From: Methyloceanibacter sp.
GTDB lineage: Bacteria > Pseudomonadota > Alphaproteobacteria > Rhizobiales > Methyloligellaceae
Direction of reading: 5' to 3'
DNA: 64,000 bases
Assembly (NCBI RefSeq): GCF_050728395.1
Contig: NZ_JBOHJB010000001.1
Location: 56,601 to 120,600 of the forward strand
A model generated the notes under the pieces. The model was not told where the DNA came from, searched no databases, and worked only from the letters and a program-made list of their open reading frames with translations. Of this stretch, positions 8,772 to 36,698 are shown piece after piece. Position 1 is the first letter of the stretch; every line of letters begins with the position of its first letter. Made by a program: the position numbers and the translations under genes.

Positions 8772-8878
8772 GCAAGGTGCTCTTGGCGGCCGGTCGGTAG
8801 CGAAGACCTAGCATAGCCGCGGAGAAAATTCGGAGAAGTTCCCGTAGGAACCGCTGTTTTGAGCTAAGCTTCAGCGAC

Positions 8879-9613: not shown

Positions 9614-9832
9614 GCAGGCTACCGGCAGAACCGCGCCTGCCCAAGCATTGCCTCGAGAGCCAAAGCGTTGGCCACTCATGGCCGCGTTGATCGCGCCGAT
9701 GTTGTTCGTCACCAAGATCGGGTTTGGCTTGGCGTGCGGCGTCGAATTGATCGACGGCACGCAACCGTTCCGCACAGCAACACGAATTGTTATGCAGATG
9801 AGACGCCCCAGCAGTTGAAAGACCTGAGACGA

Positions 9833-11059: not shown

Positions 11060-11190
11060 TGAAGGCGAACTTTCGATCGTCTAACCCCTTGCAAGAGAAG
11101 CCGCTATCGCATGGCGCAGGTACGTGAGCAATGGTGCAGGCCGCGCCAGGCAAGAAAAAAGACGCGGGTCGCCTTAGCTGCCGGCTGGTT

Positions 11191-12258: not shown

Positions 12259-12390
12259 GAGCTTTTGGTTGAAACGAAAAATCGATAGTCAGGACAGGTA
12301 ATTGCTGGTGTTTGTATAGCACGATGGCTCATGCCTACAATCGGCAGCCCGCGATAGTGTCTTGACCGAACGGGCCGGCAAAGGGGTGCA

Positions 12391-22203: not shown

Positions 22204-25119
22204 TCAAGTTGGGGCTGCGCCAGCCCTGTTCAAGTGAACTCCCCGGCGAATGACGAACGGGAGGAGCAAGAGCAATAGCGCACCCAGCGAAATCAGGGCT
22301 CCAGCTCGGAAGGAGACCGGCTCGTAGGCGAACTCGACAGTACTTTTCCCCGCCGGCACGATGACGCCTCTGAACAGATAGTCCGCTTTCAGCAGCGGAG
22401 CCGGTTTTCCGTCAACGTAGGCCAGCCAGCCGGGGTAGTTGCTGTCGTTCAACATCAGCACGGCGGGCGACGGGGTATCCACCTCGACCGCCACATGCTG
22501 GGACTCATAGCGGGAAATCTTGGCGGTTCCGCCTGCCGCATCGGGCTTGATTGACTGAAGTATCGTCAAGTCACGGTCGGAAAGACCCTCGCGGGAAAGA
22601 GCGACAGCGTGAAAGGGATCGAAGCTCGGTTGCTTCAGGCGTTGCAGGACGTCACCGTCGGGCAGGATCTCGGCATTGTGAAAGAGCGAGGCCCGCGGCA
22701 AGACCTTGGAGACTTCGTAAATGCGAACCTCCTTGTCGTAGACCTCGCGAAAGGGCCCGCTCTTCTCAACCCCGCTCGCAGGCGCGAAGCGAAGCCCTGC
22801 CCATCCAGCCCAGTCCCAACCATTGCTGCCGCTCGGTCCTGGGTCGGTGGAGAACAGCAACTTGACGGGCTTCCCCGCGAAGCGACTGAGGTCCAAGCTA
22901 AATGGATGCCCCGCGCGAGCGGCACTGACCTCCTTTGGATTCAGGAAGGTCGAGAATAAAGGTTCGATCCTATCATCGCTCTCAACCTCGATGAGGAATC
23001 CGACGCCGTCACTCTTGTCGATGGCATCTTCCCGTATGACCGCAGTTCCCTCCAGCACCGGGCGGTCCGCCCGGATCGTCGTCGTATAGGAGAGTCGCTT
23101 GGAGGGGGGGTGATGAAACAAGCCTTGGACTGCCCGCCCATTCACGTCAAACGTGCCCGGTCCCAATCCCCATAGGTGTTCGCTTCTATGCTGCGCGAAA
23201 ATCTCGCCGGCAACGTTGGCGGTCGAGCCATACTCGCTCACGCTGATCAAATACTTCACCGAAGACAGTGCAAGAAATCGTCTCTCCGTTTCAGTGTCGA
23301 AGGCATAGGAGAATTTTGGATCGGCCCCCGTGAAGCGATTGGCCAAGTCACCCTGGAGGCGTGCGTCCCCAGGCGTGCCGAGAAAGCTGCGAATGAAATC
23401 CATGTAGCGGCGGTAGTACATGGCATCGAGACCCCGTACGTCAGCGAGCTCGAAGGCTCCAGCCCAGTTGGGAAAGAGCACGTTCTGGCGAGCGAAGATC
23501 CGGTAATGGTCTCGGTTTTGGGCGCGGAGGAAATCGATATAGGGAGCGCCGGCGTAAGGGGTTTCGCTCGCACGCGGAAGAGAGTTGAAAGCATAGAAGC
23601 TGGGGACGATGAAGTTGAAGGACAGCTCGGCGACGAGCAGCGACACCACACCCAAGGCCGCGTATGGAAAGCGCTTGCTTGGCAGCGACAGCAAAATGAT
23701 CGCGCCGAGAGACACGATGACCCCGGATAGGGCTGACACGTAGTACCAGGGCGCAACGTCCTTAACCGCGCGAAGCTCGGGCATATGCAGCGCCGCCAAG
23801 GCCAACACGATCCCAAGCACGATGCCGGCGGCAGCCAGCAGATGACGATATGCGTGCCGTTCGGTGACGTGAGAAAATCCGATGGCGGCGAGCATGGCGA
23901 CGCAAAATGCCATGAGCGGTTCCTGGTACTTTACGTAGATGACCAAATTTGAAATCGGCAGCGCTCCGATCCAATTGATGATCGGATGGCCGAAGTGCTT
24001 CAGGATCAACAGCACCAAGGACAGTGAGAAGAAAAAGGTCAGGGACGGCAGCGGAGCTGGAGATTTTGTCCGCCGGGGAAACAGCCAGACGATCATCGCG
24101 GTTGCCGCAAAGATGCTGGCGAGAAGTCCCCAATAGCCCCGAACGCCCAGTCGTCCCGAGAACACCGGTCCAGCGATCAGCGGAAGGAAGTAGGTAATCG
24201 CTGCCCCTAGGTCGGGGTAAGCCAGCAGTCCGGCAATCCTGCCGCCCACATTTGATGGACGGTGGGCGTCATGGCCCGCGGCCATGAACTCGAGGAATGG
24301 AAGCAGCAGAAATGCCGAAAGCGCAAAACCCAAGCTTATGGCAGCGGCGAACTTCCATAGCCGGGAAGTCAGGGTCGTACGGAACTCCGGTACCGAGGCG
24401 AGCCTGAACAAGACGAAGAGGCAGGCGAACGATACCGCCAAGAAAAGCGATTCAGGCATTCCGCCCAGGGTGGCGACGAGAATCATCCCGGCGGCGCCCG
24501 CGACCGCTCCCCAAGAATTCTTTCTCAGGAGGACTTCAAACACCAAAAAGAGACCTGGGAGCAGGACCTCCACGCTCAGATGAGGCATGGAAAGAAAGAG
24601 GGCCAAATATCCCGTTAGCATGAAGGCGATGGCCGCGAACAGCGCGGGAAGAAACTCGAGGAAAAGCCGCGCGAACAGGAACGTCAACAAACCCGCAAGG
24701 AGGAGGCGGCCAATGAGGAAAAGGTTGTACGCCCACGGCGTGGGATTGAGCGAGAGCAACACAGACAAGGGATAGAATGGCTGTGGCTGCATCGCCGCGG
24801 CGAGTGGCGCCCCGTAGGCGGTGTAGGGATTCCACAGCGGAAGCTCGTGCTCCGTCCAATACTGTTGTGAGAGGAGTTTGCTGTAAGGTTCTGCCAGCCA
24901 TGCAGGCGCGCCGGCATCCGGGGTCCGGCCAAAGGGCCGAGGTGTCGCCCTATCGGCTGGATTCCGGGCGTAGGCGCCCGAAGGCATGATGCTCGGTGCA
25001 TCCCGGACGCTCAGCAACAGCGTCTGGTCCATCCACAACACGGGGAAAAAGAGCAGATTGAGGATGACTGCCAAAGACAGAGTTGCGTAGACCCACTCTT
25101 TCATGCGGACCTCGCGCAT
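22204..25119 (-). CDS. YfhO-family GT-C membrane glycosyltransferase with inserted beta-sandwich domain
   Basis: LPLWNPYTAYGAPL, FYPL, LLLPFLEF, DVRGLDAM, and C-terminal YPGWLAYVDGKPAPLLKADYLFRGVIVPAGKSTVEFAYEP. Confidence 0.88.
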   Translation of the reverse strand: MREVRMKEWVYATLSLAVILNLLFFPVLWMDQTLLLSVRDAPSIMPSGAYARNPADRATPRPFGRTPDAGAPAWLAEPYSKLLSQQYWTEHELPLWNPYTAYGAPLAAAMQPQPFYPLSVLLSLNPTPWAYNLFLIGRLLLAGLLTFLFARLFLEFLPALFAAIAFMLTGYLALFLSMPHLSVEVLLPGLFLVFEVLLRKNSWGAVAGAAGMILVATLGGMPESLFLAVSFACLFVLFRLASVPEFRTTLTSRLWKFAAAISLGFALSAFLLLPFLEFMAAGHDAHRPSNVGGRIAGLLAYPDLGAAITYFLPLIAGPVFSGRLGVRGYWGLLASIFAATAMIVWLFPRRTKSPAPLPSLTFFFSLSLVLLILKHFGHPIINWIGALPISNLVIYVKYQEPLMAFCVAMLAAIGFSHVTERHAYRHLLAAAGIVLGIVLALAALHMPELRAVKDVAPWYYVSALSGVIVSLGAIILLSLPSKRFPYAALGVVSLLVAELSFNFIVPSFYAFNSLPRASETPYAGAPYIDFLRAQNRDHYRIFARQNVLFPNWAGAFELADVRGLDAMYYRRYMDFIRSFLGTPGDARLQGDLANRFTGADPKFSYAFDTETERRFLALSSVKYLISVSEYGSTANVAGEIFAQHRSEHLWGLGPGTFDVNGRAVQGLFHHPPSKRLSYTTTIRADRPVLEGTAVIREDAIDKSDGVGFLIEVESDDRIEPLFSTFLNPKEVSAARAGHPFSLDLSRFAGKPVKLLFSTDPGPSGSNGWDWAGWAGLRFAPASGVEKSGPFREVYDKEVRIYEVSKVLPRASLFHNAEILPDGDVLQRLKQPSFDPFHAVALSREGLSDRDLTILQSIKPDAAGGTAKISRYESQHVAVEVDTPSPAVLMLNDSNYPGWLAYVDGKPAPLLKADYLFRGVIVPAGKSTVEFAYEPVSFRAGALISLGALLLLLLPFVIRRGVHLNRAGAAPT

Positions 25120-26297: not shown

Positions 26298-27875
26298 ATG
26301 AGCAAACCACTTCGCCTTGTCAGGCAGCCCGCGCGGTCCGCTGAGTTTGCTTGTCCTCTGTGCGGAAGTGAGCACGCGGCCTATATTTTCTCGACAAACC
26401 AGCATCGAATCCACCGCTGCGCGGGCTGTGCGCTAACCTTCAGCGAAACGCGCCCCGAGAGGCCGGGGTCCGCGCCCTCTGCGGATTCCGCATCGATTGC
26501 GAAAGCCGAACGAGACGAAACCCATCATGCTCGCCTGCTCGCGGCGCTTGCCTCTGCGAAAGTCGAGGGACCGGTATTGGCGCTTGCCGAACCCAATGAC
26601 GGGCTCGTGTCGTTGCTTGGGCGCACCGGAATTCGTCTCGGTGACGTCGCCGGTCCGGAAAACTTCGCATCCGCCGATTGGGGAAGTGCGCACCAGGCCG
26701 CCGTCGTGTCCGATGCCCTGATGCGTGTCGCAAACCCTCGGGCGGCACTTTCGAAGATCCGGAAGCATCTTGCGCCCGGCGCATGCCTGTTCCTTAGCAT
26801 GCCCCTGGTTGACGGCTACCAAGCAAGGCTGATGGGCCGCAATTGGCACGAATGGCGGTCGCCGAACCTTTGGTACTTCAGCCGCGAAACTTTGAATCTA
26901 CTTCTGCTGGCCACGGGCTTCGAGCACGTCTGGTTTGAACCAGAGCGGCGCAGATACTCCCTCGATACGTTGCTTCAGCGCGTGGGCGCGCCTGCGGAGG
27001 CTGGGGGCTTGGGTCGCGGACTTGATCTGTTGCGGCGGGTCTCTCCTGGAAACCTTTGCCGCCGAGCCGTTCCCCCGCCGAGTGGAACGGACGTCGTCAC
27101 GGCCAGAACGGCGGCAATGGCGCCAAGCGACACCGTATCGATCATTGTTCCTGCTTTCAACGAAGGGGCCACGTTTAGAGCCTTGATGGATGCCTTGCTC
27201 GCGAAGCAACTCGCCGGCATGCGCAAAGAGATCATCATCGTCGAAAGCAACTCTACCGACGTCACCAGGGATCTCGCCAAGAGCTACGCCACGCATCCCG
27301 AAGTCAAACTGCTGCTGCAATCCGCCCCGCGCGGAAAGGGCAATGCCGTGCGCGAGGGCTTGACGGTCGCCACCGGCGACATCGTGATGATTCAGGATGC
27401 CGATCTCGAATACGATCTCGACGATTACGACGGACTTCTCGCGCCGCTAACAGCCTGGCAATCGATGTTCATCCTCGGCTCGCGCCACCAGGGCGGCTGG
27501 AAGATGAGAACGTTTCACGATGCGCCGCGACTGGCAGTGATGTTCAATTTCGCGCATTGGTTCTTTAGGTCGATGATCAATGGCGTGCTCAATACGCGGA
27601 TGACGGATCCTTTCACCATGTTCAAGGTCTTCCGCCGCGACGCTCTCTATGGACTGGACTTCACCTGCAACCGGTTCGATTTCGACATCGAGCTCGTGAT
27701 CAAGCTCGTGCGCAAGGGTTATGTGCCGGTGGAGATTCCGGTGAACTATGAGGCGCGGTCGTTCAGCGAGGGCAAGAAGGTCAGCGTCACTCGAGATGGC
27801 CTCACTTGGGTATGGACCATCCTCAAGGCCCGATTTGCTCCGATTCCGAGCAGGCTTTCGGAGCCCAATCGATAG
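26298..27875 (+). CDS. Fusion of zinc-ribbon/degenerate methyltransferase-like domain and DPM1-like GT2
   Basis: CPLC...CAGCAL, no GxG SAM motif, PNLWYFSRETL; then SIIVPAFNE, GKGNAVREG, IQDADLEYD, TDPFTMFKVFR, FDFDIEL. Confidence 0.82.
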   Translation: MSKPLRLVRQPARSAEFACPLCGSEHAAYIFSTNQHRIHRCAGCALTFSETRPERPGSAPSADSASIAKAERDETHHARLLAALASAKVEGPVLALAEPNDGLVSLLGRTGIRLGDVAGPENFASADWGSAHQAAVVSDALMRVANPRAALSKIRKHLAPGACLFLSMPLVDGYQARLMGRNWHEWRSPNLWYFSRETLNLLLLATGFEHVWFEPERRRYSLDTLLQRVGAPAEAGGLGRGLDLLRRVSPGNLCRRAVPPPSGTDVVTARTAAMAPSDTVSIIVPAFNEGATFRALMDALLAKQLAGMRKEIIIVESNSTDVTRDLAKSYATHPEVKLLLQSAPRGKGNAVREGLTVATGDIVMIQDADLEYDLDDYDGLLAPLTAWQSMFILGSRHQGGWKMRTFHDAPRLAVMFNFAHWFFRSMINGVLNTRMTDPFTMFKVFRRDALYGLDFTCNRFDFDIELVIKLVRKGYVPVEIPVNYEARSFSEGKKVSVTRDGLTWVWTILKARFAPIPSRLSEPNR

Positions 27876-27946
27876 ATGCTCCGCTGGGCCTCCAAGGATG
27901 CGCGTCCTTGCCGTTTTTTGAATCTGGCCCGTTTGCCGACCAGCCG

Positions 27947-28921
27947 ATGCCAAAGTCGATTCCTTCCAATTGGATTGCCCTTGCCAGCCGCCTGCTCCTT
28001 CTCGCTGCGATCCTGGTCATCGTTTCGCGCGAGCATAGTTTCGATACGCTGCTCGCCTTGTGGCAGCGTATCGAACCGGCCTCCCTCGCCCTCGTCACCG
28101 TCGTCATGATAGCTCTTCAGGCAACCGGCGCTTGGCGGCTCATGGCCATCACGTTTGCCGACGGGCTTCGTCAGGTCGGCTTCCGGCCGCTGTTTCGTAT
28201 CCAGCTCGTCTCGCAATTCGCAGCTGACGCCGCGCCGATCTCCGCGCTCGCTGACGTAGCGAAGGCCGCCATGGTCAAGCTTCGGTTCGCCCTCGGCACA
28301 GGGCAATCGATCCGCCCCGTCTTGTACGAGCGGATTTGTGGAGCCATGGCGGCGATCGTCATCGGAGTGCTATGCCTGTCCGCCCAATTGGTCGTGCCCA
28401 CCCCTGCGGATTTGGTGAAGGCCCAGGCGATTCTGTGGGGCGTGGGCTGCGCCGGCATCGCTGCTCTCATTGCCCTCGGCGGATTTCACCTCAACACCAA
28501 ATTCGAGTTCCTGAATCGGCTGGTGCGCGCGGTAATCGCGCTCGGTCACATGCTGCGTAGCCCTCTCCTCACCGCCCAGCTCCTATTGGCCACGGCGCTT
28601 CTTCTCGCAGGCTACTCGGTTATCTTCATCGTCCTTGCGCACGCCATGCAGATCCAAGTCTCCGTGCCCCACGTGTTTCTGTTCACCCCGCTGATTTTCT
28701 TCGTGTCGTCCCTTCCCGTATTCTATCAAGGCTGGGGCGGGCGCGAAGCCGCGGCGATCGCGACCATCGGCAACACGGGGCAAGTGACGAGCGCGGAAGC
28801 AATCGCCCTATCCGTCGCGTTCGGAATCGTGGTGTTTCTCGGCTCGCTTCCAGGAGCGGTATTCTGGCTGATGCGGCCATCCATGCGAAAAGCGGTCCGC
28901 CAGGAGGTCGAGCAGGCTTGA
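27947..28921 (+). CDS. Lysylphosphatidylglycerol synthase TM / UPF0104 flippase-like membrane protein
   Basis: WRL, ERICG and SSLPVFYQGWGGREAA motifs, about 8 TM helices. Start trimmed from 27806. Confidence 0.8.
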   Translation: MPKSIPSNWIALASRLLLLAAILVIVSREHSFDTLLALWQRIEPASLALVTVVMIALQATGAWRLMAITFADGLRQVGFRPLFRIQLVSQFAADAAPISALADVAKAAMVKLRFALGTGQSIRPVLYERICGAMAAIVIGVLCLSAQLVVPTPADLVKAQAILWGVGCAGIAALIALGGFHLNTKFEFLNRLVRAVIALGHMLRSPLLTAQLLLATALLLAGYSVIFIVLAHAMQIQVSVPHVFLFTPLIFFVSSLPVFYQGWGGREAAAIATIGNTGQVTSAEAIALSVAFGIVVFLGSLPGAVFWLMRPSMRKAVRQEVEQA

Positions 28922-28951: not shown

Positions 28952-29908
28952 ATGCATGCCTTCGTCACCGGCGCTGCCGGCTTCATCGGCAGCAATCTCG
29001 TCGATCGCTTGCTCGAGCAGGGCCATCCGGTCGTCGGCTACGACAATTTTTCCACCGGCTTCAGGCCCTTTCTGCAAAGCGCATCGACGCACGCGAATTT
29101 TCGACTGTGCGAGGGCGACGTCTTGGACCTGGAGGGGATGACACGCGTCATGCGGGGGACCGACATCGTGTTTCACCTGGCGGCCAACGCCGACGTTCGC
29201 TTCGGTCTTCAGCACCCACGTAAGGATCTCGAGCAGAATACCATCGCGACGTTCAATGTGCTCGAAGCGATGCGCGCCAATGCGGTCGGCCGGATCGTGT
29301 TCTCATCGACCGGCTCGATCTACGGCGAAGCCGATATCGTTCCTACCCCGGAGAACGCGCCCTTCCCCGTACAGACGTCTCTCTACGGAGCCTCCAAGCT
29401 CGCCGGCGAGGGGCTGATCGAAGCCTATTGTGAGGGGTTTGGCATGCGCGGCTGGATCTTCCGCTTCGTCTCCATCCTTGGGCCGCGCTACACCCACGGT
29501 CACGTGTTCGACTTCTACGCGCAGCTTCTCGATCACCCGTCACGGCTGGACGTGCTTGGCAACGGGCGCCAGCGGAAGTCTTATTTGCACGTTCAGGACT
29601 GCATCGACGCCATGGGTTGCGCCTTGCGCATGGCTGAGAACAAGGTCAATGTCTTCAATCTTGGTACTGACGAATATTGTGAAGTGAACGACTCGATCGG
29701 GTGGATGACGGGTCATCTCGGCGTCAAACCCGCCCTCGCCTATAGCGGCGGCGATCGTGGCTGGGTTGGCGACAATCCCTTTATCTTCCTCGATGCGAGC
29801 CGCATACGGGCGCTCGGCTGGAAGCCGAAATACTCCATCCGCGAGAGCGTCATCGAGACCTTGGATTGGCTCAGCAAGAACCAATGGGTTCTGGTCAGCC
29901 GGCGATAA
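28952..29908 (+). CDS. NAD-dependent epimerase/dehydratase (NDP-sugar epimerase)
   Basis: TGAAGFIGS, HLAANADV, SSTGSIYG, YGASK, KSYLHVQD. Confidence 0.9.
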   Translation: MHAFVTGAAGFIGSNLVDRLLEQGHPVVGYDNFSTGFRPFLQSASTHANFRLCEGDVLDLEGMTRVMRGTDIVFHLAANADVRFGLQHPRKDLEQNTIATFNVLEAMRANAVGRIVFSSTGSIYGEADIVPTPENAPFPVQTSLYGASKLAGEGLIEAYCEGFGMRGWIFRFVSILGPRYTHGHVFDFYAQLLDHPSRLDVLGNGRQRKSYLHVQDCIDAMGCALRMAENKVNVFNLGTDEYCEVNDSIGWMTGHLGVKPALAYSGGDRGWVGDNPFIFLDASRIRALGWKPKYSIRESVIETLDWLSKNQWVLVSRR

Positions 29909-29986
29909 ATGCTGACGCTTGCCGATTTCGTGTGGATCGAAAGGCCTGTGAAGAGTGGTTCGAGTAACGCCTCATAGTCTGCAGCG

Positions 29987-31276
29987 ATGAAGATTTGCGT
30001 CTTTGGAACATGGCATCTGGGCTGCGTCACCGCTGCCTGCCTCGCCCATGCCGGCTACCTAACGACCGGCCTCGACTACGACCGGGCGGTTATTGCGGGT
30101 CTCCGGGCGGGCAAGGCTCCCTTGTTCGAGCCAGGACTGGACGAGCTGATCGCCGAAGGGATTGCCGCGTTCCGGCTGGACTTCGCGACAGACCCCAAGG
30201 CTGTGGCGGAGTGCGACATCGTCTGGGTGGCCTTCGATACTCCAGTCGACGACAATGACGTCGCCGACGTGCAATGCGTGATCGATGCCGCACGCGGCCT
30301 GTTGCCTCATCTCCGCGACGGCGCGGTCGTGCTGATCTCATCGCAGCTCCCTGTTGGCAGCACGCGCGCGTTGTCGGAGGATTTTCGCCGGGAAGAGCCC
30401 TCCAAGACATGCCACTTTGCCTATTCGCCGGAGAATTTGCGTCTTGGGAAGGCCATCGAGATCTTCAGGAACGCCGAACGTATCGTCGTGGGATGCGAGG
30501 ATGAGAGGGTCATCCAGGTCCTTCGCCCCGTGCTTGAGAATTTCACGCAAACCATCCTCTGGATGTGCCTCGAATCGGCGGAAATGGTGAAGCACGCCAT
30601 GAATGTTTTTCTCGCGACGAGCGTGACCTTCGCCAACGAGATGGCTTCGATTTGCGAGCGCGTGGGGGCGGACGCCGGCCAAGTGGAGCAAGCGCTTCGG
30701 CTTGAGCCTCGGATTGGTCCCAGAGCCTATATCAAACCAGGCACATCCTTTGCCGGCGGGACGTTGGCGCGCGATGTGATGTTCTTGCGGAGTATCGCGC
30801 GGCGCGAGGGCCTACACGTGCCGCTGATCGACGGCATTTTGCCGAGCAACAAGGCCCATCAGCGTTGGCCGGTTCGGCGTTTGACGGAGCGCTACGGGTC
30901 GTTGAAGGGTCGCAACGTGGCGGTGCTTGGACTCACCTACAAACCCGGGACGGACACGCTCCGCCGCTCATCCTCGATTGAGGTGTGCCGGGGGCTTGCC
31001 GAACTTGGCGCCAAGGTCACCGCCTTCGATCCGGCGATCCGCACCCTACCTCAGGAGCTCGAAAAGGTTATCCGTCTCACCGATAGCATCGAAGGGGCTC
31101 TGTCCGGCGCCGATGCCGCCATCGTGGCGACCGAGTGGCCCGAGTTCAAGTCGCTGTCGCCGAGCGTCTGCATCGATACCATGCGCAGCCCGTTGATCTG
31201 CGATCCTAATCGCTTCCTCGGGGCGGCTTTCGAGAACGCTCCGCAAATCACGTACATCACCGTGGGGAAAGCTTAA
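29987..31276 (+). CDS. UDP-glucose/GDP-mannose dehydrogenase family protein with non-canonical active site
   Basis: FEPGLDEL, FDTPVD, YSPENLRLGKA, SAEMVKHAMN and LGLTYKPGTDTLR. The catalytic GGxCxxKD motif reads GGTLARD. Confidence 0.85.
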   Translation: MKICVFGTWHLGCVTAACLAHAGYLTTGLDYDRAVIAGLRAGKAPLFEPGLDELIAEGIAAFRLDFATDPKAVAECDIVWVAFDTPVDDNDVADVQCVIDAARGLLPHLRDGAVVLISSQLPVGSTRALSEDFRREEPSKTCHFAYSPENLRLGKAIEIFRNAERIVVGCEDERVIQVLRPVLENFTQTILWMCLESAEMVKHAMNVFLATSVTFANEMASICERVGADAGQVEQALRLEPRIGPRAYIKPGTSFAGGTLARDVMFLRSIARREGLHVPLIDGILPSNKAHQRWPVRRLTERYGSLKGRNVAVLGLTYKPGTDTLRRSSSIEVCRGLAELGAKVTAFDPAIRTLPQELEKVIRLTDSIEGALSGADAAIVATEWPEFKSLSPSVCIDTMRSPLICDPNRFLGAAFENAPQITYITVGKA

Positions 31277-31277
31277 G

Positions 31278-32144
31278 ATGCGGCTCACCGGCAAATGCGC
31301 CATCGTCACGGGTGCGAGCCAGGGACTCGGCGCGGCAATAGCCGAACGCTTCGTGGAGGAAGGCGCCTCCTTGCTGATCTGCGCCCGCAGCGCCGACGCC
31401 ATCAACAGCGTTGCGGAGAAACTCTCTGCCAAGGCGAGCAGCGGTCAACAGATTGCCGCTTGCACCACGGACGTGGCCGATGCATCGCAGGTCGATAGCC
31501 TGGTGAAGCGCGCGCTGGACCTCTTCGGACGCATCGATATCCTCGTGAACAATGCAGGCATTTACGGTCCAATGGGCCTGACTCACGAGGTCGATTGGAA
31601 CGAATGGGTCGATGCCATCTCCATAAACCTGTTGGGGGTCGTCTATGCCTGCCGCGCCGTCACCCCGATCATGATCGCCCAAGACTCGGGCAGGATCGTC
31701 AACATCTCGGGCGGCGGAGCGACGAACCCCCTGCCCCGGCTGACCAGCTACGCAGCATCAAAGGCTGCCGTCGTGCGCTTCAGCGAGTCGCTTGCGCTCG
31801 AGCTCAAGGAGCACGGCATTACCGTGAACACGGTCGCTCCGGGCGCGCTGGCCACGCGAATGATGCGGCAAGTGCTCGAAGCCGGCCCCGAGAAGGTCGG
31901 TGCCGCGTTCCACGAGCGCATGGGCAAGCTCCACAGAGAAGGTGGGACGCCTCTCTCGGCCGGGGCCGATCTGACCGTCTATCTCGCCTCCGACGAGAGC
32001 GCCGGCATCACCGGAAGATTGATCAGCGCTGTGTGGGATCCTTGGCCGACCCTGCACATTCATGCCGCTGAACTCGAGTCCGCCGACATTTACACGCTTC
32101 GTCGTATCGTGCCCGCCGATCGCGGCCGCAGCTTCGATGACTAA
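31278..32144 (+). CDS. Short-chain dehydrogenase/reductase
   Basis: TGASQGLG, LVNNAG, YAASK. Confidence 0.9.
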   Translation: MRLTGKCAIVTGASQGLGAAIAERFVEEGASLLICARSADAINSVAEKLSAKASSGQQIAACTTDVADASQVDSLVKRALDLFGRIDILVNNAGIYGPMGLTHEVDWNEWVDAISINLLGVVYACRAVTPIMIAQDSGRIVNISGGGATNPLPRLTSYAASKAAVVRFSESLALELKEHGITVNTVAPGALATRMMRQVLEAGPEKVGAAFHERMGKLHREGGTPLSAGADLTVYLASDESAGITGRLISAVWDPWPTLHIHAAELESADIYTLRRIVPADRGRSFDD

Positions 32145-32147
32145 GCC

Positions 32148-33119
32148 ATGAAACTCGGGATCGTCGGTTGTGGATTGATCGGACAGAAGCGCGCCGCGAC
32201 AGCAGCAAGCGGCCAGGTCGCCATCGTCTGCGACACCGACATCGAGCGGGCGAGATCGCTTGCGTCACGCACCGGCGCCGATGCGGTCGAGGACTGGCGC
32301 AAAGTGATCGCGGCAAACATCGATGCGGTCATCGTCGCCACGACGCACGACAGCCTCGCCGAGATTTCCACGGCGGCTGCGGAAGCCGGAAAGCACGTGC
32401 TCGTCGAAAAGCCTGCCGGGCGGAACTTCGCCGAGGCGGCGCGGGTCCGCGATGCGGGGCAGCGGAGCGGGATCGTGGTAAAGGTCGGCTTCAATCACCG
32501 TTTCCACCCAGGCCTGAGCGCAGCGAAGGACATCGTCAGTTCCGGCGCGCTGGGGCCGCTATACTATGTTCGCGGCCGTTACGGACATGGCGGGCGCGTG
32601 GGCTACGAGCAAGAATGGCGCTGTCAGCGCGAGATTTCCGGCGGCGGTGAACTGATCGACCAGGGAAGCCACCTGATCGATCTGTCGCGCTGGTTCTTGG
32701 GCGATCTCGCTCTCGACTATGCCGTAACGCCGACGTTCTTTTGGGATGTCGCCGTCGACGACAATTGCTTTCTTGCCCTGCGCGGCACCAAAAGCGAAGT
32801 CGCCTGGCTGCACGCCACCTGGACCGAGTGGAAGAACATGTTCTCGTTTGAGATCGTGGGACGCGACGGTAAACTCACCAGCGAAGGCCTCGGCGAGAGT
32901 TACGGCGTCGAGCGGCTCACCTTCCACAAGATGCTTCCTCAAATGGGACCGCCCGAGACCGTCACCTGGGAGTATCCGTTTCCGGATACGTCGTGGCAGT
33001 GCGAGTTTGAAAGCTTCACCGCCGCCGTCGAGGGCAGACCTTCGCGGATTGCCGACATCAGCGACGCATGTGCAGTTCTTGCGATTGTCGAACAAGCATA
33101 TGCAGGAGCCAGCAGATGA
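32148..33119 (+). CDS. Gfo/Idh/MocA family oxidoreductase
   Basis: GCGLIG, HVLVEKP, GGGELIDQGSHLID. Confidence 0.9.
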   Translation: MKLGIVGCGLIGQKRAATAASGQVAIVCDTDIERARSLASRTGADAVEDWRKVIAANIDAVIVATTHDSLAEISTAAAEAGKHVLVEKPAGRNFAEAARVRDAGQRSGIVVKVGFNHRFHPGLSAAKDIVSSGALGPLYYVRGRYGHGGRVGYEQEWRCQREISGGGELIDQGSHLIDLSRWFLGDLALDYAVTPTFFWDVAVDDNCFLALRGTKSEVAWLHATWTEWKNMFSFEIVGRDGKLTSEGLGESYGVERLTFHKMLPQMGPPETVTWEYPFPDTSWQCEFESFTAAVEGRPSRIADISDACAVLAIVEQAYAGASR

Positions 33120-34096
33120 TCATCGCCCGTAGCCCCTTGCGCATCACGCTTGGCGGCGGAGGGACCGACCTTCCGTCCTACTACCGGGATCATGGAGGAT
33201 TCCTGATCGCGGCAGCCATCGACCGCTACGTCTACATCACCATCCATATGACGTTCGTCGACTATCTCATCGTCAAATATTCCAAGCTCGAGCAGGTCAC
33301 CTCCATCGACGAGCTGCAGCACCCGATCATCCGCGAAGCCATGAAGTTGCTTGGCGTCAGTTGCAAGCGGCTCGAGATCACGAGCATGGCGGACATTCCC
33401 GCAGGCACGGGGCTCGGCTCCTCCGGCAGCTTCACCACGGCGTTGCTGCGGGCGCTCCATGCCTATCAGAAGAACCTCGTCAGCCCCCAAACGCTGGCCG
33501 AGCAGGCTTGCCATATCGAAATCGACCTTCTCGGCGAGCCGACCGGCAAGCAGGACCAATTTATCGCTTCATTCGGCGGTGTGACCTGCTTCCATTTCAA
33601 CAAAGACGACACCGTCTCCGCCGCACCTGCACAGATTTCGCCCGAAACGCTGGACAATCTCGAAGACGGATTGGTGATGTTCTTTACCGGCGTTACCCGT
33701 TCTGCCGGAACCATCCTCAAGGAGCAGGACGACAAATCGAAAGCCAAGGACAGCTCGGTGATCGATAATCTGCACTATGTGAAGGATCTCGGCTTGCGCA
33801 GCCTCAACGCGCTTGAAAGCGGCGACCTCTACATGTTCGGCGTGCTTATGGATGAGCACTGGAAGCACAAGAAGAAGCGCTCCAACCACATGACAAATCC
33901 GGAGATTGACCACTGGTACGACCTCGCCATGCGCAATGGCGCGCGGGGCGGCAAGCTGATCGGCGCCGGTGGCGGAGGATTCCTGTTGTTCTACACCGAG
34001 GACAAGAAGCGTGTGCGGCATGTCATGCGCGAGACGGGGCTCGAGGAGGTGCGCATCCGTTTCGATTTCGAAGGCACCAAGATCATCGTGCAATGA
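33116..34096 (+). CDS. hddA: GHMP sugar kinase (HddA/LmbP-like heptose/octose-phosphate 1-kinase)
   Basis: ARSPLRITLGGGGTD, GTGLGSSG, GKQDQ, GKLIGAGGGGF. ATGA coupling at 33116. Confidence 0.85.
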   Translation: MIIARSPLRITLGGGGTDLPSYYRDHGGFLIAAAIDRYVYITIHMTFVDYLIVKYSKLEQVTSIDELQHPIIREAMKLLGVSCKRLEITSMADIPAGTGLGSSGSFTTALLRALHAYQKNLVSPQTLAEQACHIEIDLLGEPTGKQDQFIASFGGVTCFHFNKDDTVSAAPAQISPETLDNLEDGLVMFFTGVTRSAGTILKEQDDKSKAKDSSVIDNLHYVKDLGLRSLNALESGDLYMFGVLMDEHWKHKKKRSNHMTNPEIDHWYDLAMRNGARGGKLIGAGGGGFLLFYTEDKKRVRHVMRETGLEEVRIRFDFEGTKIIVQ

Positions 34097-34815
34097 CCGA
34101 GATGCCGCCATTGGCGCTGCTGGCGGGCGGCTTGGCCACGCGACTGCGGCCACTGACACAGCAGATGCCGAAGGCGATGATCGAGGTCGCCGGCGAGCCG
34201 TTCATCGCTCATCAGCTCCGCCTTTTGCAGCGCGAGCGCGTTTCGCGCGTGGTGCTTTGCGTCGGGTATCTTTGGGAGCAGATCGCGGAGTTCGTCGGCG
34301 ACGGCGGCAGGTTCGGCGTCAACGTCAGTTACCAGGTCGACGGTCCGGAGTTGCTCGGCACCGGTGGAGCGCTCCGCGCCGCGCTTCCCGAGCTCGGAAG
34401 CGAGTTCCTCGTGATGTACGGCGACAGCTGGCTCGACACGGCCTATGCGCCGATCGTCGATGCATTCCGGGCGAGCGGCAAGCCTGCATTGATGACCGTG
34501 TTCCGCAACGATGGGAAATGGGACACGAGCAATGTCTGGTTCGATGAAGGGCGCATCAGGTGCTACGACAAGGCGGAGCGCCTGCCGCAGATGCGCCATA
34601 TCGACTGGGGGCTCGGAATACTCCGCTCCGAGGTGCCGTCAGCGCGGTCCCCGGGCGTTTCGTTCGATCTCGCCAGCGTCTATGCCGAGCTTGCGCAATC
34701 CGGCAACCTCGCGGGCTATGAGGTGAAGACCCGCTTCTACGAGATCGGGTCGCCGGACGGCTTGCGCAAAACCGACGCGCTGCTCCGCGGCAGGGTCGCG
34801 CCGACGTCCCTTTGA
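34093..34815 (+). CDS. hddC: Sugar-1-phosphate nucleotidyltransferase (HddC/LmbO-like)
   Basis: LAGGLATRLRPLT..MPK.MI.VAGEPF, LGTGGAL, MYGDS, FYEIGSP. Confidence 0.78.
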   Translation: MTEMPPLALLAGGLATRLRPLTQQMPKAMIEVAGEPFIAHQLRLLQRERVSRVVLCVGYLWEQIAEFVGDGGRFGVNVSYQVDGPELLGTGGALRAALPELGSEFLVMYGDSWLDTAYAPIVDAFRASGKPALMTVFRNDGKWDTSNVWFDEGRIRCYDKAERLPQMRHIDWGLGILRSEVPSARSPGVSFDLASVYAELAQSGNLAGYEVKTRFYEIGSPDGLRKTDALLRGRVAPTSL

Positions 34816-34825
34816 CCCGACCGCC

Positions 34826-35575
34826 CTACGAGGCGGCGCGTTTGCCCGGACTCTCGATCTGATAGCCCGCCGATGCCGCGTCGTTGTAGAACATCTTCAC
34901 CGTGTCCAGCGAGTAATCCTTGAGATCCTTGCCGACCAGAGCGAGCTTCTTCAAATGGTCGTTGGTGACGGTGATGATGTGGCAGCCGATTGCATCTGCC
35001 TGGAAGATGTTCAGCACCTCCCGAGGGCTCGCCCAGAGCAGCTCGGCCTTCGGACGTCCCTTCAACAGGCGAAGCGCCTCGGCCATATGCGGCACCGGAT
35101 CGCGTCCGGTATCGGCGATGCGGCCGGCAAAGACCGACACCACCGCCGGCACGCTCTCCGCCAACGCCTCGCCGACACGCGAGACCTGCTCCAGCGTCGT
35201 CATGGCGGTGACATTGAGTTTCACCCCTGCCCGCGACAGCATTGCGATCAATGGGCCGGAGAAATCGCCCTTGGTATTGGTCACCGGGATCTTCACATAG
35301 ACATTGTCACCCCATGAAGAGATCTCACGCGCCTGCGCCTCCATCGAAAGGAAGTCGTCGGCGAACACTTCGAAGGAGATTGGGCGATCGGGGATGATGG
35401 TCAGCACATCATGGGCAAAAGACTTGTAGTCGTTCACACCGGCCGCGCGCATCAGCGTGGGGTTGGTGGTGAAACCCTTGATGAGTGGGTTGCCGGCTGC
35501 CTGGCGCATGGCGTTGAGGTCGGCGCCATCGGCGAAAATCTTGATTCTGAGTTGGTCGACGCTCGGTGTGCTCAT
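34826..35575 (-). CDS. tal: Transaldolase (short Tal/FSA family)
   Basis: IFADGA, GFTTNPTL, ISFEV, VYVKIP (Schiff-base Lys), SVFAGRIAD, LWASPRE. Confidence 0.88.
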   Translation of the reverse strand: MSTPSVDQLRIKIFADGADLNAMRQAAGNPLIKGFTTNPTLMRAAGVNDYKSFAHDVLTIIPDRPISFEVFADDFLSMEAQAREISSWGDNVYVKIPVTNTKGDFSGPLIAMLSRAGVKLNVTAMTTLEQVSRVGEALAESVPAVVSVFAGRIADTGRDPVPHMAEALRLLKGRPKAELLWASPREVLNIFQADAIGCHIITVTNDHLKKLALVGKDLKDYSLDTVKMFYNDAASAGYQIESPGKRAAS

Positions 35576-36120
35576 GTGCGATCTCCCGTTTGCGTCCCCT
35601 CAAGTATAGCCGCGGCAGCTTCGATCAGCGAACTGATTATTTTATCGGGCTGCATTGACCCTTCTTGCTCGTAACCGTGATCCACGAATAGCGTCTTGCA
35701 CCCGGCGGCACGCCCAGCTTCCATGTCGCGCCAGCGATCGCCGACGAGATAGCTCGACGAGAGATCGATCCCCCACTCCGCTGCGGCGTCGAGCAGCATG
35801 CCTGGCTTGGGCTTGCGGCAATGGCAATTGTCGGTGTTGAGGTGAGCGCACATCTTGATGCCGTCGATCTGGAGCTCCGCCCGGATCTTGTCGTGCATGG
35901 CATCGACGGTCGCCTGTGAGGTCCGACCGGTCGCAAGGTCCGGCTGATTGGTGATGACGATGATCGTGAAGCCGGCCTTCTTGAGGGCGCCGATGGCTTC
36001 CCCTACTCCCGGCAGGAACCGGAAATCTTCGAGCCGGGTGGGAGCCACGGCCTTTCCATCGCGCTCCACGTTGGCATTGATGACGCCGTCCCGGTCGAGG
36101 AAGACGGCCCTAGTCACCAT
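35572..36120 (-). CDS. gmhB: HAD-family sugar bisphosphate phosphatase (GmhB/LmbK-like)
   Basis: AVFLDRDGVIN, ITNQPD, CHCRKPKPGM, VGDRWRDMEAG. True start ATG 36120 lies inside the longer ORF. Confidence 0.88.
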   Translation of the reverse strand: MVTRAVFLDRDGVINANVERDGKAVAPTRLEDFRFLPGVGEAIGALKKAGFTIIVITNQPDLATGRTSQATVDAMHDKIRAELQIDGIKMCAHLNTDNCHCRKPKPGMLLDAAAEWGIDLSSSYLVGDRWRDMEAGRAAGCKTLFVDHGYEQEGSMQPDKIISSLIEAAAAILEGTQTGDRT

Positions 36121-36698
36121 TTGGTCGCGTGCTTCTGCAGCTTCGGATTCGATACGAGGCAGTGCCAAACGACGGCCTGGAAGGCCTCGGATAAAGGCGT
36201 CACCCTCGACTCCTCGACGGTCGGAATCACCACGACAACGTCGCCAGCCTTCTTGGTATAGCCGCCGTCGCGGCCGACGATGCCGAACACTTTCAGGCCG
36301 CGCTGCTTGGCCTCCTGGATCGCTGCCACGATATTCGGGCTCACGTTCTTTTCGAGATTGCCGCCGCCGACGGAGAAGATCAGGATCGCATCCTTGGCAT
36401 TGGCGCGGCTCACTTTGAGCCACTCGGCGAACACCGTTTGCCAGCCTTCGTCGTTGGTGCGTGCCGTGAGCTCCGAGACATTGTCGGTCGGAGCGTAGGC
36501 CTCGATGCCGCACAGCTTGCGAAAGTCATTGACGGCATGGCTGCTGTTGCCGGCACTGCCGCCCACGCCGAGAATGAACAGACGTCCGTCGCGCTCGCGC
36601 AGGGCGACGAGCTCGTCGCAAAGGGACTCGACCGTCTCCGGGGACAGAAGCGTCGCGGTTTGGCAGACTTCACCAAGGAAGGTGGCAGCGTGGGTCAT
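36114..36698 (-). CDS. gmhA: SIS-domain phosphosugar isomerase (GmhA-like, atypical)
   Basis: LFILGVGGSAGNSSHAVND, LTARTNDEGW..VF, SEAFQAVVWH. Start trimmed to ATG 36698. Confidence 0.8.
   Translation of the reverse strand: MTHAATFLGEVCQTATLLSPETVESLCDELVALRERDGRLFILGVGGSAGNSSHAVNDFRKLCGIEAYAPTDNVSELTARTNDEGWQTVFAEWLKVSRANAKDAILIFSVGGGNLEKNVSPNIVAAIQEAKQRGLKVFGIVGRDGGYTKKAGDVVVVIPTVEESRVTPLSEAFQAVVWHCLVSNPKLQKHATKW

What the first reader, a model, noticed from the sequence alone, without database searches (positions are those of the whole stretch)
28952..36698. Candidate NDP-octose (higher-carbon sugar) pathway, lincosamide-type gene set, inside a surface-glycan locus
Seen: nine tightly coupled genes in two convergent operons. 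On + are epimerase, UDP-GlcDH-like, SDR, Gfo/Idh/MocA, GHMP kinase and nucleotidyltransferase; on - are SIS isomerase, HAD phosphatase and transaldolase. Established: the canonical GDP-heptose route needs only GmhA, HddA, GmhB and HddC. The lincomycin/celesticetin GDP-octose route uses transaldolase LmbR, SIS isomerase LmbN, kinase LmbP, phosphatase LmbK and guanylyltransferase LmbO. It continues with epimerase LmbM, the LmbL (UDP-GlcDH family) + LmbZ/CcbZ (Gfo/Idh/MocA) dehydratase pair and aminotransferase LmbS. Eight of those families are here, and an SDR stands where the aminotransferase would be. Inference: the block makes a reduced deoxy-octose, or another unusual C7-C8 sugar, for cell-surface glycan rather than for an antibiotic.
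Basis: partly seen in the sequence, partly recalled or inferred. Interest (0 to 1): 0.88.

Follow-up and report, generated by a model that had tools for sequence, protein, structure and literature searches.

The report
Transaldolase-primed higher-sugar (octose-type) nucleotide cassette
Nine tightly linked genes, conserved as one unit in hundreds of bacterial species and some archaea, most likely build a nucleotide-activated eight-carbon sugar for the cell surface using the enzyme logic so far known only from the antibiotic lincomycin, but the sugar's chain length is not proven.

Summary
The nine genes are real, intact and at the stated coordinates. They form a conserved cassette. The cysteine-less UGDH-like gene has relatives of 49-66% identity in at least 584 species of many phyla and one archaeal genus. 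In 28 of 40 well-covered loci all nine genes lie within 10 kb.

The five "heptose-like" enzymes all fall below NCBIfam's curated cut-offs for GmhA, HddA, GmhB and HddC. The isomerase belongs to a separate subfamily with its own signature. Near-canonical GmhA or HddA genes coexist with the module in two genomes.

The transaldolase is an integral part. It is translationally coupled to the phosphatase, fused to it in close relatives, and replaced by another transaldolase subfamily in one locus.

The UGDH-like protein has Thr for the catalytic Cys and always pairs with a Gfo/Idh/MocA enzyme. This fits an LmbL/LmbZ-type side-chain dehydratase.

So the lincosamide-type octose reading is the best explanation (about 0.55). 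It remains indirect. No Lmb/Ccb sequence could be compared, and the transaldolase is not of the LmbR subfamily. A heptose route with a private precursor supply is not excluded.

Earlier notes of this scan report the same cassette in at least 42 other genomes.

The parts
28952..29908 (+). GalE-like extended SDR (NDP-sugar epimerase/dehydratase family), LmbM-like in family; 318 aa
   Evidence: PF01370 3e-50 and TIGR01179 148 bits, below cut-off. GAAGFIG and YGASK motifs are present. Orthologues of 63-71% identity sit at the head of the cassette in most loci.
29987..31276 (+). UDP-Glc/GDP-Man dehydrogenase-family protein without the catalytic Cys (Thr259) and with GTWHLG in place of GxGxxG; 429 aa. 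Proposed partner of the Gfo enzyme in side-chain dehydration.
   Evidence: All three family domains are present. The alignment to UGDH 4a7p shows GGSCFPKD replaced by AGGTLARD. The motif is invariant in 120 homologues. It is found in 133 of the top 150 cluster representatives.
31278..32144 (+). Classical short-chain dehydrogenase/reductase, 288 aa. Proposed ketoreductase, occupying the role that the aminotransferase LmbS has in lincosamide synthesis.
   Evidence: PF00106 1e-60. TGASQGLG, NNAG and YAASK motifs are present. It was found next to the dehydrogenase homologue in 40 of 40 well-covered loci.
32148..33119 (+). Gfo/Idh/MocA NAD-dependent sugar oxidoreductase, 323 aa; LmbZ/CcbZ-like in family
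   Evidence: PF01408 and PF22725. GCGLIG and EKP motifs are present. The best solved relatives are sugar C3/secondary-alcohol dehydrogenases, namely levoglucosan dehydrogenase and DgpA. It is present in 37 of 40 loci.
33116..34096 (+). GHMP anomeric sugar-phosphate kinase, 326 aa from the ATG at 33116; HddA/LmbP-like
   Evidence: PF00288 and PF08544. NF049969 HddA scores 164 bits against a cut-off of 600. The best PDB hits are heptose-7-P kinases: WcbL 4usm at 166 bits, and 3k85. It has an ATGA overlap with the Gfo stop.
34093..34815 (+). Sugar-1-phosphate nucleotidyltransferase, 240 aa; HddC/LmbO-like; nucleotide specificity unknown
   Evidence: PF00483 8e-18. Best NCBIfam hits are MurU at 100 bits, mannose-1-P guanylyltransferase at 83 and HddC at 75 against a cut-off of 300. 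It has an ATGA overlap with the kinase stop.
34826..35575 (-). True transaldolase, 249 aa, TIGR02134 type. Proposed first committed step, making the ketose phosphate.
   Evidence: TIGR02134 scores 358.5 bits against a cut-off of 282. TTNP, the Schiff-base Lys in VKIP, Glu in FEVF and Phe in SVFAGR indicate Tal-like rather than FSA-like chemistry. It is the only PF00923 gene in the genome. In-frame HAD::Tal fusions occur in close relatives.
35572..36120 (-). GmhB-type HAD-IIIA sugar bisphosphate phosphatase, 182 aa; LmbK-like
   Evidence: NF006506 scores 140 bits against a cut-off of 178, and TIGR01656 scores 128 bits. DRDG and the C-x-H...C-x-C zinc loop are present. Its start overlaps the SIS stop and its stop overlaps the Tal start.
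36114..36698 (-). SIS-domain ketose/aldose phosphate isomerase, 194 aa, of a subfamily distinct from GmhA; LmbN-like in family
   Evidence: TIGR00441 scores 54 bits against a cut-off of 209. It is the only GmhA-like gene in the genome. Its signature against GmhA is Glu to Asp in HAVNDF, a 6-aa insertion in the phosphate loop, a 5-aa deletion and a C-terminal KW. All 57 cassette isomerases examined share this signature.
26298..27875 (+). Accessory: GT2 with an N-terminal methyltransferase-like domain; candidate polyprenyl-phosphate sugar transferase
   Evidence: PF00535 7e-25 and PF13489. Homologues lie directly upstream of the cassette in Skermanella (L006) and in L045, L046, L051, L058 and L078.
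27806..28921 (+). Accessory: LPG_synthase_TM (UPF0104) membrane protein; candidate flippase-type partner of the GT2
   Evidence: PF03706 2e-16. The same family lies inside the Lawsonia cassette and next to the Skermanella one.
22204..25119 (-). Accessory: YfhO-like GT-C membrane glycosyltransferase, 971 aa
   Evidence: PF09586 3e-14. Homologues of 51-53% identity flank the cassette in L058 and L078.

Best explanation
The block is one copy of a widespread, experimentally uncharacterised nine-gene cassette that makes a nucleotide-activated, side-chain-modified higher-carbon sugar for a surface glycan.

Proposed route (every chemical step is inferred, none is shown):
1. The transaldolase moves a C3 unit from fructose-6-P or sedoheptulose-7-P onto ribose-5-P, giving octulose-8-P.
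2. The SIS enzyme isomerises this to octose-8-P.
3. The GHMP kinase phosphorylates C1.
4. The GmhB-type phosphatase removes the terminal phosphate.
5. The nucleotidyltransferase makes the NDP-octose, probably GDP-octose.
6. The GalE-like SDR epimerises it.
7. The Gfo/Idh/MocA enzyme and the Cys-less UGDH-like protein act together as an oxidation/elimination (6,8-dehydratase-type) pair.
8. The classical SDR reduces the resulting keto group, where lincosamide synthesis transaminates. The product would be an NDP-deoxy-octose.

In this alphaproteobacterium the neighbouring GT2, UPF0104 membrane protein and YfhO-type GT-C probably load the sugar on a polyprenyl phosphate and add it to a glycan outside the cytoplasm. 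Nearby methyltransferases may methylate it.
For: 1. The cassette is a unit.
- Relatives of the UGDH-like gene occur in at least 584 species.
- All nine genes lie within 10 kb in 28 of 40 well-covered loci, and 18 of these have the order Epim-DH-SDR-Gfo-GHMP-NTase-SIS-HAD-Tal.
- A Lawsonia intracellularis plasmid carries the full set.
- In a sample of 401 alphaproteobacterial genomes, all 4 with the UGDH-like gene also have this transaldolase within 15 kb. The background frequency of the transaldolase is 36 of 401.

2. The transaldolase is integral.
- Its start overlaps the phosphatase stop.
- In-frame HAD::Tal fusions exist in relatives.
- An FSA/TalC-type transaldolase sits in the same slot in L111.
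- Skermanella has a second Tal-family gene elsewhere.

3. The enzymes are not canonical heptose enzymes.
- GmhA scores 54 against a cut-off of 209, HddA 164 against 600, GmhB 140 against 178 and HddC 75 against 300.
- The isomerase subfamily has its own signature.
- Pseudolabrys has a 183-bit GmhA elsewhere as well as this isomerase.
- L119 has a 380-bit HddA and a 183-bit GmhA next to a complete cassette.
- This genome has no GT9 heptosyltransferase and no HldE.

4. The Cys-less UGDH-like protein is tied to a Gfo partner and to the SIS-HAD-Tal triplet.
- The Thr type always sits with a Gfo partner in this cassette.
- An Asn type sits with a Gfo partner in a second cluster type.

5. Family-for-family match to LmbR/N/P/K/O and LmbM/L/Z, whose functions are published.
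Against: - No Lmb/Ccb sequence was compared, so the correspondence is at family level only.
- The transaldolase belongs to a different subfamily from CcbR/LmbR.
- The best characterised relatives of the kinase, phosphatase and isomerase are heptose enzymes. This is also what the literature reports for the Lmb/Ccb proteins, so it does not discriminate.
- In this genome the cluster transaldolase is the only one, so it could also serve central metabolism.
- The same SIS-HAD-Tal triplet sits beside an HldE-like gene and a GT9 heptosyltransferase in Pseudolabrys, a heptose-looking context.
- No aldo-octose is known to me from a bacterial surface glycan (own knowledge). Library searches found no paper on one.
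- The changed Rossmann motif (GTWHLG) leaves the cofactor use of the UGDH-like protein unclear.
Confidence: 0.55

Rival explanations
1. The cassette is a GDP- (or other NDP-) heptose pathway with a private sedoheptulose-7-P supply. The transaldolase makes S7P from F6P and E4P. The SIS, kinase, HAD and NTase enzymes act as divergent GmhA, HddA, GmhB and HddC. The four redox enzymes then tailor the heptose, for example by epimerisation, oxidation or deoxygenation.
For: - The closest characterised relatives of four of the enzymes are heptose enzymes.
- The SIS-HAD-Tal triplet lies next to an HldE-like gene and a GT9 heptosyltransferase in Pseudolabrys.
- This genome has no other transaldolase or GmhA.
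Against: - All four enzymes score far below the curated equivalog cut-offs.
- Near-canonical GmhA or HddA genes coexist with the module in Pseudolabrys and in L119. That would make the module redundant.
- S7P is a central metabolite, and the studied heptose clusters need no transaldolase (established knowledge: Kneidinger et al. pathways).
- A 6,8-type side-chain dehydration has no counterpart on a C7 sugar, so the obligatory UGDH-like/Gfo pair would be left unexplained.
- The genome has no GT9 or HldE.
Confidence: 0.27
2. The cassette makes a higher sugar of another length or type, because the transaldolase uses a different aldose phosphate acceptor. A hexose-6-P acceptor would give a C9 sugar and a heptose-7-P acceptor a C10 sugar. 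Alternatively the redox enzymes build a branched or carbocyclic sugar.
For: - Transaldolases accept several aldose phosphates (established knowledge).
- A second cluster type built on the same triplet carries extra SDRs and a radical-SAM gene.
- An earlier scan note links such clusters to the C10 sugar bradyrhizose. A Bradyrhizobium 11-gene sugar operon is required for that O-antigen (PMC4743980).
Against: - There is no direct evidence.
- Peptides encoded by the published gdh primers were not found in the type-B loci I held.
- The only studied transaldolase-primed sugar-nucleotide route is the C8 route.
Confidence: 0.12
3. Chance juxtaposition of two unrelated functions: a housekeeping transaldolase with a heptose module, and a WbpA/WbpB-like pair (UDP-GlcNAc dehydrogenase plus Gfo oxidoreductase) for an aminouronic acid.
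For: - A UGDH-family gene next to a Gfo/Idh/MocA gene is also the WbpA/WbpB arrangement (established knowledge).
- The transaldolase is the only one in this genome.
Against: - The catalytic Cys is absent, so no uronic acid can be formed by the family's mechanism.
- The cassette has no WbpE/WbpD-type aminotransferase or acetyltransferase.
- All nine genes travel together across phyla.
- HAD::Tal fusions exist.
Confidence: 0.04

Closest known systems
Lincosamide GDP-octose / GDP-lincosamide sub-pathway of Streptomyces lincolnensis and S. caelestis (LmbR, N, P, K, O, then LmbM, LmbL, LmbZ/CcbZ, LmbS/CcbS)
   Same: The enzyme families match one for one: transaldolase, SIS isomerase, GHMP kinase, HAD phosphatase, nucleotidyltransferase, GalE-like epimerase, UGDH-family protein and Gfo/Idh/MocA oxidoreductase. 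It is the only studied sugar-nucleotide route that begins with a dedicated transaldolase.
   Different: - There is no aminotransferase; a classical SDR stands in its place.
- The transaldolase is TIGR02134 type (249 aa), not the 222-aa short type of CcbR.
- There are no carrier-protein fusions and no NRPS-like or mycothiol genes.
- The cassette sits in glycan loci of many phyla, not in an antibiotic cluster.
- Sequence-level kinship to Lmb/Ccb was not tested.
GDP-D-glycero-alpha-D-manno-heptose pathway (GmhA, HddA, GmhB, HddC; Aneurinibacillus S-layer, Burkholderia and Campylobacter capsules)
   Same: It uses the same four families for isomerisation, C1 phosphorylation, terminal dephosphorylation and nucleotidyl transfer. 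The kinase's best solved relatives are WcbL and HddA.
   Different: - All four window proteins fail the curated equivalog cut-offs.
- The isomerase is a separate subfamily.
- The studied heptose pathways have no transaldolase and no UGDH-like/Gfo pair.
UDP-glucose 6-dehydrogenase (Ugd/TuaD; PDB 4a7p, 3gg2)
   Same: It has the same three-domain architecture and about 35% identity. Residues I align with the family's Lys/Asn/Asp catalytic set (K202, N206, D263) are invariant.
   Different: Cys is replaced by Thr, the Lys of FPKD by Arg, and GxGxxG by G(L/T)WHLG. All three changes are invariant across the subfamily. The four-electron oxidation to a uronic acid is therefore not expected.
Second, uncharacterised cluster type in Alphaproteobacteria (e.g. 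Pseudolabrys taiwanensis)
   Same: It has the same SIS-HAD-Tal triplet. The window's isomerase is 86% identical and its transaldolase 78% identical to the Pseudolabrys proteins. It also has a Cys-less UGDH-like protein next to a Gfo enzyme.
   Different: - Activation is by an HldE-like fusion with inverted domain order, instead of a GHMP kinase plus NTase.
- The Cys position holds Asn (GGNLERD).
- It has extra SDRs and a radical-SAM gene.
- It sits next to GT9 and the O-antigen ligase.

Membership tests
Lincosamide-type NDP-octose pathway | Dedicated transaldolase orthologous to LmbR/CcbR | tested here: not met
   A dedicated transaldolase is present, but it is of TIGR02134 type (358 bits, 249 aa). 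CcbR is 222 aa and its nearest relative was a short Cellulomonas transaldolase. The function may be the same. In L111 a short-type Tal fills the slot.
Lincosamide-type NDP-octose pathway | SIS isomerase, GHMP kinase, HAD phosphatase and NTase co-encoded with the transaldolase | tested here: met
   All four families are present and translationally coupled. They are conserved together across phyla. This is family level only.
Lincosamide-type NDP-octose pathway | UGDH-family (LmbL) plus Gfo/Idh/MocA (LmbZ) pair with a GalE-like epimerase (LmbM) | tested here: met
   The families are present in one operon, and the pairing is conserved. An earlier scan note says LmbL is also Cys-less. I could not check this.
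Lincosamide-type NDP-octose pathway | PLP aminotransferase (LmbS/CcbS) that makes the 6-amino sugar | tested here: not met
   There is no aminotransferase among the nine genes; a classical SDR is present instead. The DegT gene at 12391-13590 belongs to another module.
Lincosamide-type NDP-octose pathway | Sequence kinship of each protein to Lmb/Ccb rather than to Gmh/Hdd enzymes | not tested
   No Lmb/Ccb sequence was reachable.
Lincosamide-type NDP-octose pathway | Product is a C8 sugar nucleotide | not testable with these tools
   This needs enzymology or glycan analysis.
Canonical GDP-D-glycero-D-manno-heptose pathway | GmhA, HddA, GmhB and HddC equivalogs | tested here: not met
   Scores against curated cut-offs are 54 vs 209 (TIGR00441), 164 vs 600 (NF049969), 140 vs 178 (NF006506) and 75 vs 300 (NF049965). 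Better-scoring GmhA or HddA genes coexist with the module in other genomes.
UDP-glucose/GDP-mannose 6-dehydrogenase (four-electron) | Catalytic Cys in GGxCxxKD and a GxGxxG NAD motif | tested here: not met
   Thr259 stands in AGGTLARD, and the NAD motif reads GTWHLG. Both are invariant in the subfamily.
Transaldolase, TIGR02134 type | Score above the curated cut-off; Schiff-base Lys; Glu and Phe of true transaldolases | tested here: met
   358.5 bits against a cut-off of 282. K95 in VKIP, E in FEVF and F in SVFAGR are present.

The most novel reading that the evidence does not exclude
The cassette makes a nucleotide-activated deoxy-octose, a sugar class not known from any cell-surface glycan. 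It would do so by a lincosamide-like route in which the Cys-less UGDH-like protein and the Gfo enzyme form a two-protein side-chain dehydratase. If so, this sugar is widespread on the surfaces of bacteria of many phyla and of some archaea, and the lincomycin sugar genes would be a specialised offshoot of this primary glycan pathway.
Probability: 0.45. Interest if true: 0.85.

Novelty: new variant of a known kind. Interest (0 to 1): 0.72.

Why it matters
If the product is an octose, a whole class of surface sugar has been overlooked. One cause would be that databases label its genes as heptose enzymes, UDP-glucose dehydrogenase and galactokinase. The cassette occurs in hundreds of species, including soil Acidobacteriota, Chloroflexota, Legionella relatives, a Mycolicibacterium, the pig pathogen Lawsonia and Methanoperedens archaea. 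It would give a defined function to a large Cys-less branch of the UGDH family and to a separate branch of SIS isomerases. It would also suggest where the lincomycin sugar pathway came from. The question can be tested directly with five purified enzymes and LC-MS.

Tried and rejected
1. Getting Lmb/Ccb sequences for trees failed.
- The key papers PMC7547251 and PMC3486926 are not held.
- The supplements of PMC4351081 give only lengths and identities.
- The PDB has no Lmb/Ccb sugar enzymes.
- A Streptomyces plasmid transaldolase (L013) is in an unrelated context.
- I tried to reach Streptomyces genomes through a handle.
- Ten high-GC representatives of the Thr-type family were all unnamed metagenome proteins.

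2. Promoter and terminator scans gave no more sites than shuffled sequence.

3. The bradyrhizose lead led nowhere. Peptides encoded by the published gdh primers were not found in my loci, and the paper does not list the 11 genes.

4. The WbpA/WbpB reading of the dehydrogenase/Gfo pair was rejected, because the Cys is missing and the cassette has no aminotransferase or acetyltransferase.

5. A decayed pseudo-enzyme reading of the UGDH homologue was rejected, because its changed motifs are invariant across more than 130 clusters at 50% identity.

6. Literature searches for a described octose or transaldolase glycan pathway found nothing.

Full report
**Observation.** The nine ORFs exist as described. 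Pfam and NCBIfam assign them as follows.

| Coordinates | Strand | Assignment |
|---|---|---|
| 28952-29908 | + | GalE-like extended SDR |
| 29987-31276 | + | UDP-Glc/GDP-Man dehydrogenase family (UGDH-like) |
| 31278-32144 | + | classical SDR |
| 32148-33119 | + | Gfo/Idh/MocA oxidoreductase |
| 33116-34096 | + | GHMP kinase |
| 34093-34815 | + | nucleotidyltransferase |
| 36698-36114 | - | SIS isomerase |
| 36120-35572 | - | GmhB-type HAD phosphatase |
| 35575-34826 | - | transaldolase |

The genes are packed with 1-3 nt gaps or ATGA-type overlaps. The two operons converge with 10 nt between their stop codons. Cofactor and catalytic motifs are intact in the epimerase, SDR, Gfo enzyme, phosphatase, kinase and transaldolase.

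**The UGDH homologue.** Aligned to solved UDP-glucose dehydrogenases, it reads AGGTLARD where the family has GGSCFPKD. Thr259 stands at the nucleophilic Cys. It reads GTWHLG where the family has GxGxxG.
- These changes are not decay. They are invariant in 120 homologues of 54-100% identity.
- In a library of 1.84 billion cluster representatives, 133 of the best 150 hits carry the Thr motif. These hits have 30-60% identity and score 285-464 bits. Ordinary UGDHs of the PDB score about 232 bits.
- K202, N206, D263 and E149 are invariant and D30 nearly so. By my reading of the family (own knowledge) these are the Lys/Asn/Asp/Glu catalytic set and the adenosine-ribose ligand.
- The protein is therefore probably still an enzyme, or a substrate-binding partner, but not a uronic-acid-forming dehydrogenase.

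**The nine genes are a conserved cassette.**
- A pattern scan of one genome per species found at least 584 species encoding a 49-66% identical UGDH-like protein. They include Alphaproteobacteria, Acidobacteriota, Chloroflexota, Nitrospirota, Legionella relatives, Myxococcota, Planctomycetota, Verrucomicrobiota, a cyanobacterium, Mycolicibacterium sp. P1-18 and Candidatus Methanoperedens.
- Of the 40 retrieved loci with at least 8 kb on both sides, 28 hold all nine genes. Eighteen have the single-operon order Epim-DH-SDR-Gfo-GHMP-NTase-SIS-HAD-Tal, and 5 have the window's convergent order.
- A Lawsonia intracellularis plasmid carries SIS-HAD-Tal-UPF0104-DH-SDR-Gfo-kinase-NTase in one direction, with the epimerase and a GT2 upstream.
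- In Skermanella stibiiresistens the plus-strand operon is syntenic, including the upstream GT2 and UPF0104 genes. The SIS-HAD-Tal triplet lies about 16 kb away.
- In an even sample of 401 alphaproteobacterial genomes, the transaldolase type occurs in 36 and the Thr-type UGDH-like gene in 4. All 4 are among the 36, with the two genes within 15 kb.

**The transaldolase belongs to the pathway.**
- Its start overlaps the phosphatase stop.
- Close relatives encode true in-frame HAD::Tal fusions of about 431 aa.
- In a Gemmatales locus (L111) the slot after SIS-HAD holds a short FSA/TalC-type transaldolase only 32% identical. This is a non-orthologous replacement and argues that the activity itself is needed.
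- Sequence features mark a true transaldolase rather than an F6P aldolase: Lys in VKIP, Glu in FEVF and Phe in SVFAGR.
- Caveat: in this 99.99%-complete genome it is the only PF00923 gene, so it may also serve central metabolism. Skermanella has a second Tal-family gene.

**Heptose or something else?**
- All four "heptose" enzymes fall well short of NCBIfam's curated cut-offs: GmhA 54 against 209, HddA 164 against 600, GmhB 140 against 178 and HddC 75 against 300.
- The isomerase belongs to a sharply defined subfamily. Compared with GmhA, the catalytic Glu is Asp (HAVNDF), the phosphate-binding loop has a six-residue insertion (SVGGGNxEKNxS), a five-residue loop is missing, and the C-terminus ends in KW. 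All 57 cassette isomerases examined share this signature.
- Pseudolabrys taiwanensis carries this isomerase and, elsewhere, a 183-bit GmhA.
- A Vicinamibacterales locus (L119) has a 380-bit HddA and a 183-bit GmhA directly beside a complete cassette.
- The window's genome has no GT9 heptosyltransferase and no HldE.
- These facts argue that the module does not simply duplicate the S7P-to-heptose route. They do not show which sugar it handles.

**A second cluster type.**
- Most alphaproteobacterial genomes with this transaldolase lack the Thr-type gene. They carry SIS-HAD-Tal, two extended SDRs, an HldE-like fusion with inverted domain order, a Gfo enzyme, a UGDH-like protein, a third SDR and a radical-SAM gene. 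In Pseudolabrys this lies beside GT9 and the O-antigen ligase.
- Its UGDH-like protein also lacks the Cys, reading GGNLERD.
- So two different activation systems share two components: the transaldolase triplet and a Cys-less UGDH-like/Gfo pair. This coupling is what a pathway needing a longer side chain and a side-chain dehydration would predict. It is hard to explain if the transaldolase only supplies S7P.

**Comparison with the lincosamide route.**
- The literature confirms the reference functions. LmbR is the transaldolase, LmbN the isomerase, LmbP the kinase, LmbK the phosphatase and LmbO the guanylyltransferase. LmbM, LmbL, CcbZ and CcbS convert GDP-octose to GDP-lincosamide.
- The family match is complete except for the aminotransferase, where the cassette has a classical SDR.
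- It is not an orthologous copy. CcbR is a 222-aa short transaldolase. In 2015 the closest outside relatives of the Ccb sugar proteins were only 33-49% identical, several of them from Acidobacteria and Sorangium, which are among the groups found.
- I could not obtain any Lmb/Ccb sequence. The proposed trees, and the residue at the Cys position of LmbL, therefore remain untested.

**Destination of the sugar.**
- The window is a large glycan locus.
- A GT2 with an N-terminal methyltransferase-like domain and a UPF0104/LPG_synthase_TM protein lie directly upstream. A methyltransferase and a YfhO-type GT-C diverge from them.
- Homologues of the GT2, and in some loci of the UPF0104 protein and the GT-C, accompany the cassette in other alphaproteobacterial loci, Skermanella and Lawsonia.
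- A lipid-carrier route to an extracytoplasmic glycan is a reasonable inference. It is not shown.

**Verdict.** The best explanation is a transaldolase-primed NDP-higher-sugar cassette, most likely octose-type (about 0.55). An NDP-heptose route with a private precursor supply is the main rival (about 0.27). No paper in the searchable library describes the cassette. Earlier notes of this scan report the same cassette and the same reading in at least 42 other genomes. They are leads, not evidence.

Noticed in passing
L022/L023 (Pseudolabrys taiwanensis, G001) and L025-L042: A second, commoner cluster type in Alphaproteobacteria. It holds SIS-HAD-Tal, two extended SDRs, an HldE-like protein with the adenylyltransferase domain before the kinase domain, a Gfo enzyme, a UGDH-like protein with Asn at the Cys position (GGNLERD), a third SDR and a radical-SAM gene. 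In Pseudolabrys it lies beside GT9 and the O-antigen ligase.
   Followed up: partly
P0124, P0126, P0190, P0233, P0236 (relatives of window 34826-36120): In-frame fusions of the GmhB-type phosphatase and the transaldolase (about 431 aa) occur in close relatives. In the window the two genes only overlap by ATGA.
   Followed up: yes
L111:16135-16713 (Gemmatales MAG): The transaldolase slot of an otherwise normal cassette holds a short FSA/TalC-type transaldolase that is 32% identical to the window's. This is the subfamily to which CcbR appears to belong by length.
   Followed up: partly
L119:1416-3148 (Vicinamibacterales MAG): A near-canonical HddA (380 bits) and GmhA (183 bits), followed by two SDR dehydratase/epimerase genes, lie immediately upstream of a complete nine-gene cassette.
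   Followed up: yes
L012 (Lawsonia intracellularis plasmid) and L072 (Candidatus Methanoperedens MAG): The complete cassette is present on a plasmid of an obligate intracellular pig pathogen and in an archaeal MAG. This indicates wide horizontal spread.
   Followed up: partly
window 7200-13590: A separate module holds a GtrII-type GT-C, a hexapeptide acyltransferase, an ATP-grasp ligase, a GT2 and a DegT aminotransferase.
   Followed up: no
window 17343-22202: A 1619-aa protein carries GT4 and RgpF (rhamnan synthesis) domains at its C-terminus. No Pfam match was found for its first ~1000 residues.
   Followed up: no
window 38358-39416 and 42549-44150: Two ORFs of 352 and 533 aa inside the glycan locus have no Pfam match.
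   Followed up: no
L013 / L125 (Streptomyces plasmid p3211-1 and Streptomyces sp. NPDC088748): In actinomycetes a TIGR02134-type transaldolase sits with an MFS transporter, a D-arabinono-1,4-lactone oxidase-like FAD enzyme and an HxpB-like phosphatase. This is a different small module, unrelated to the cassette.
   Followed up: no
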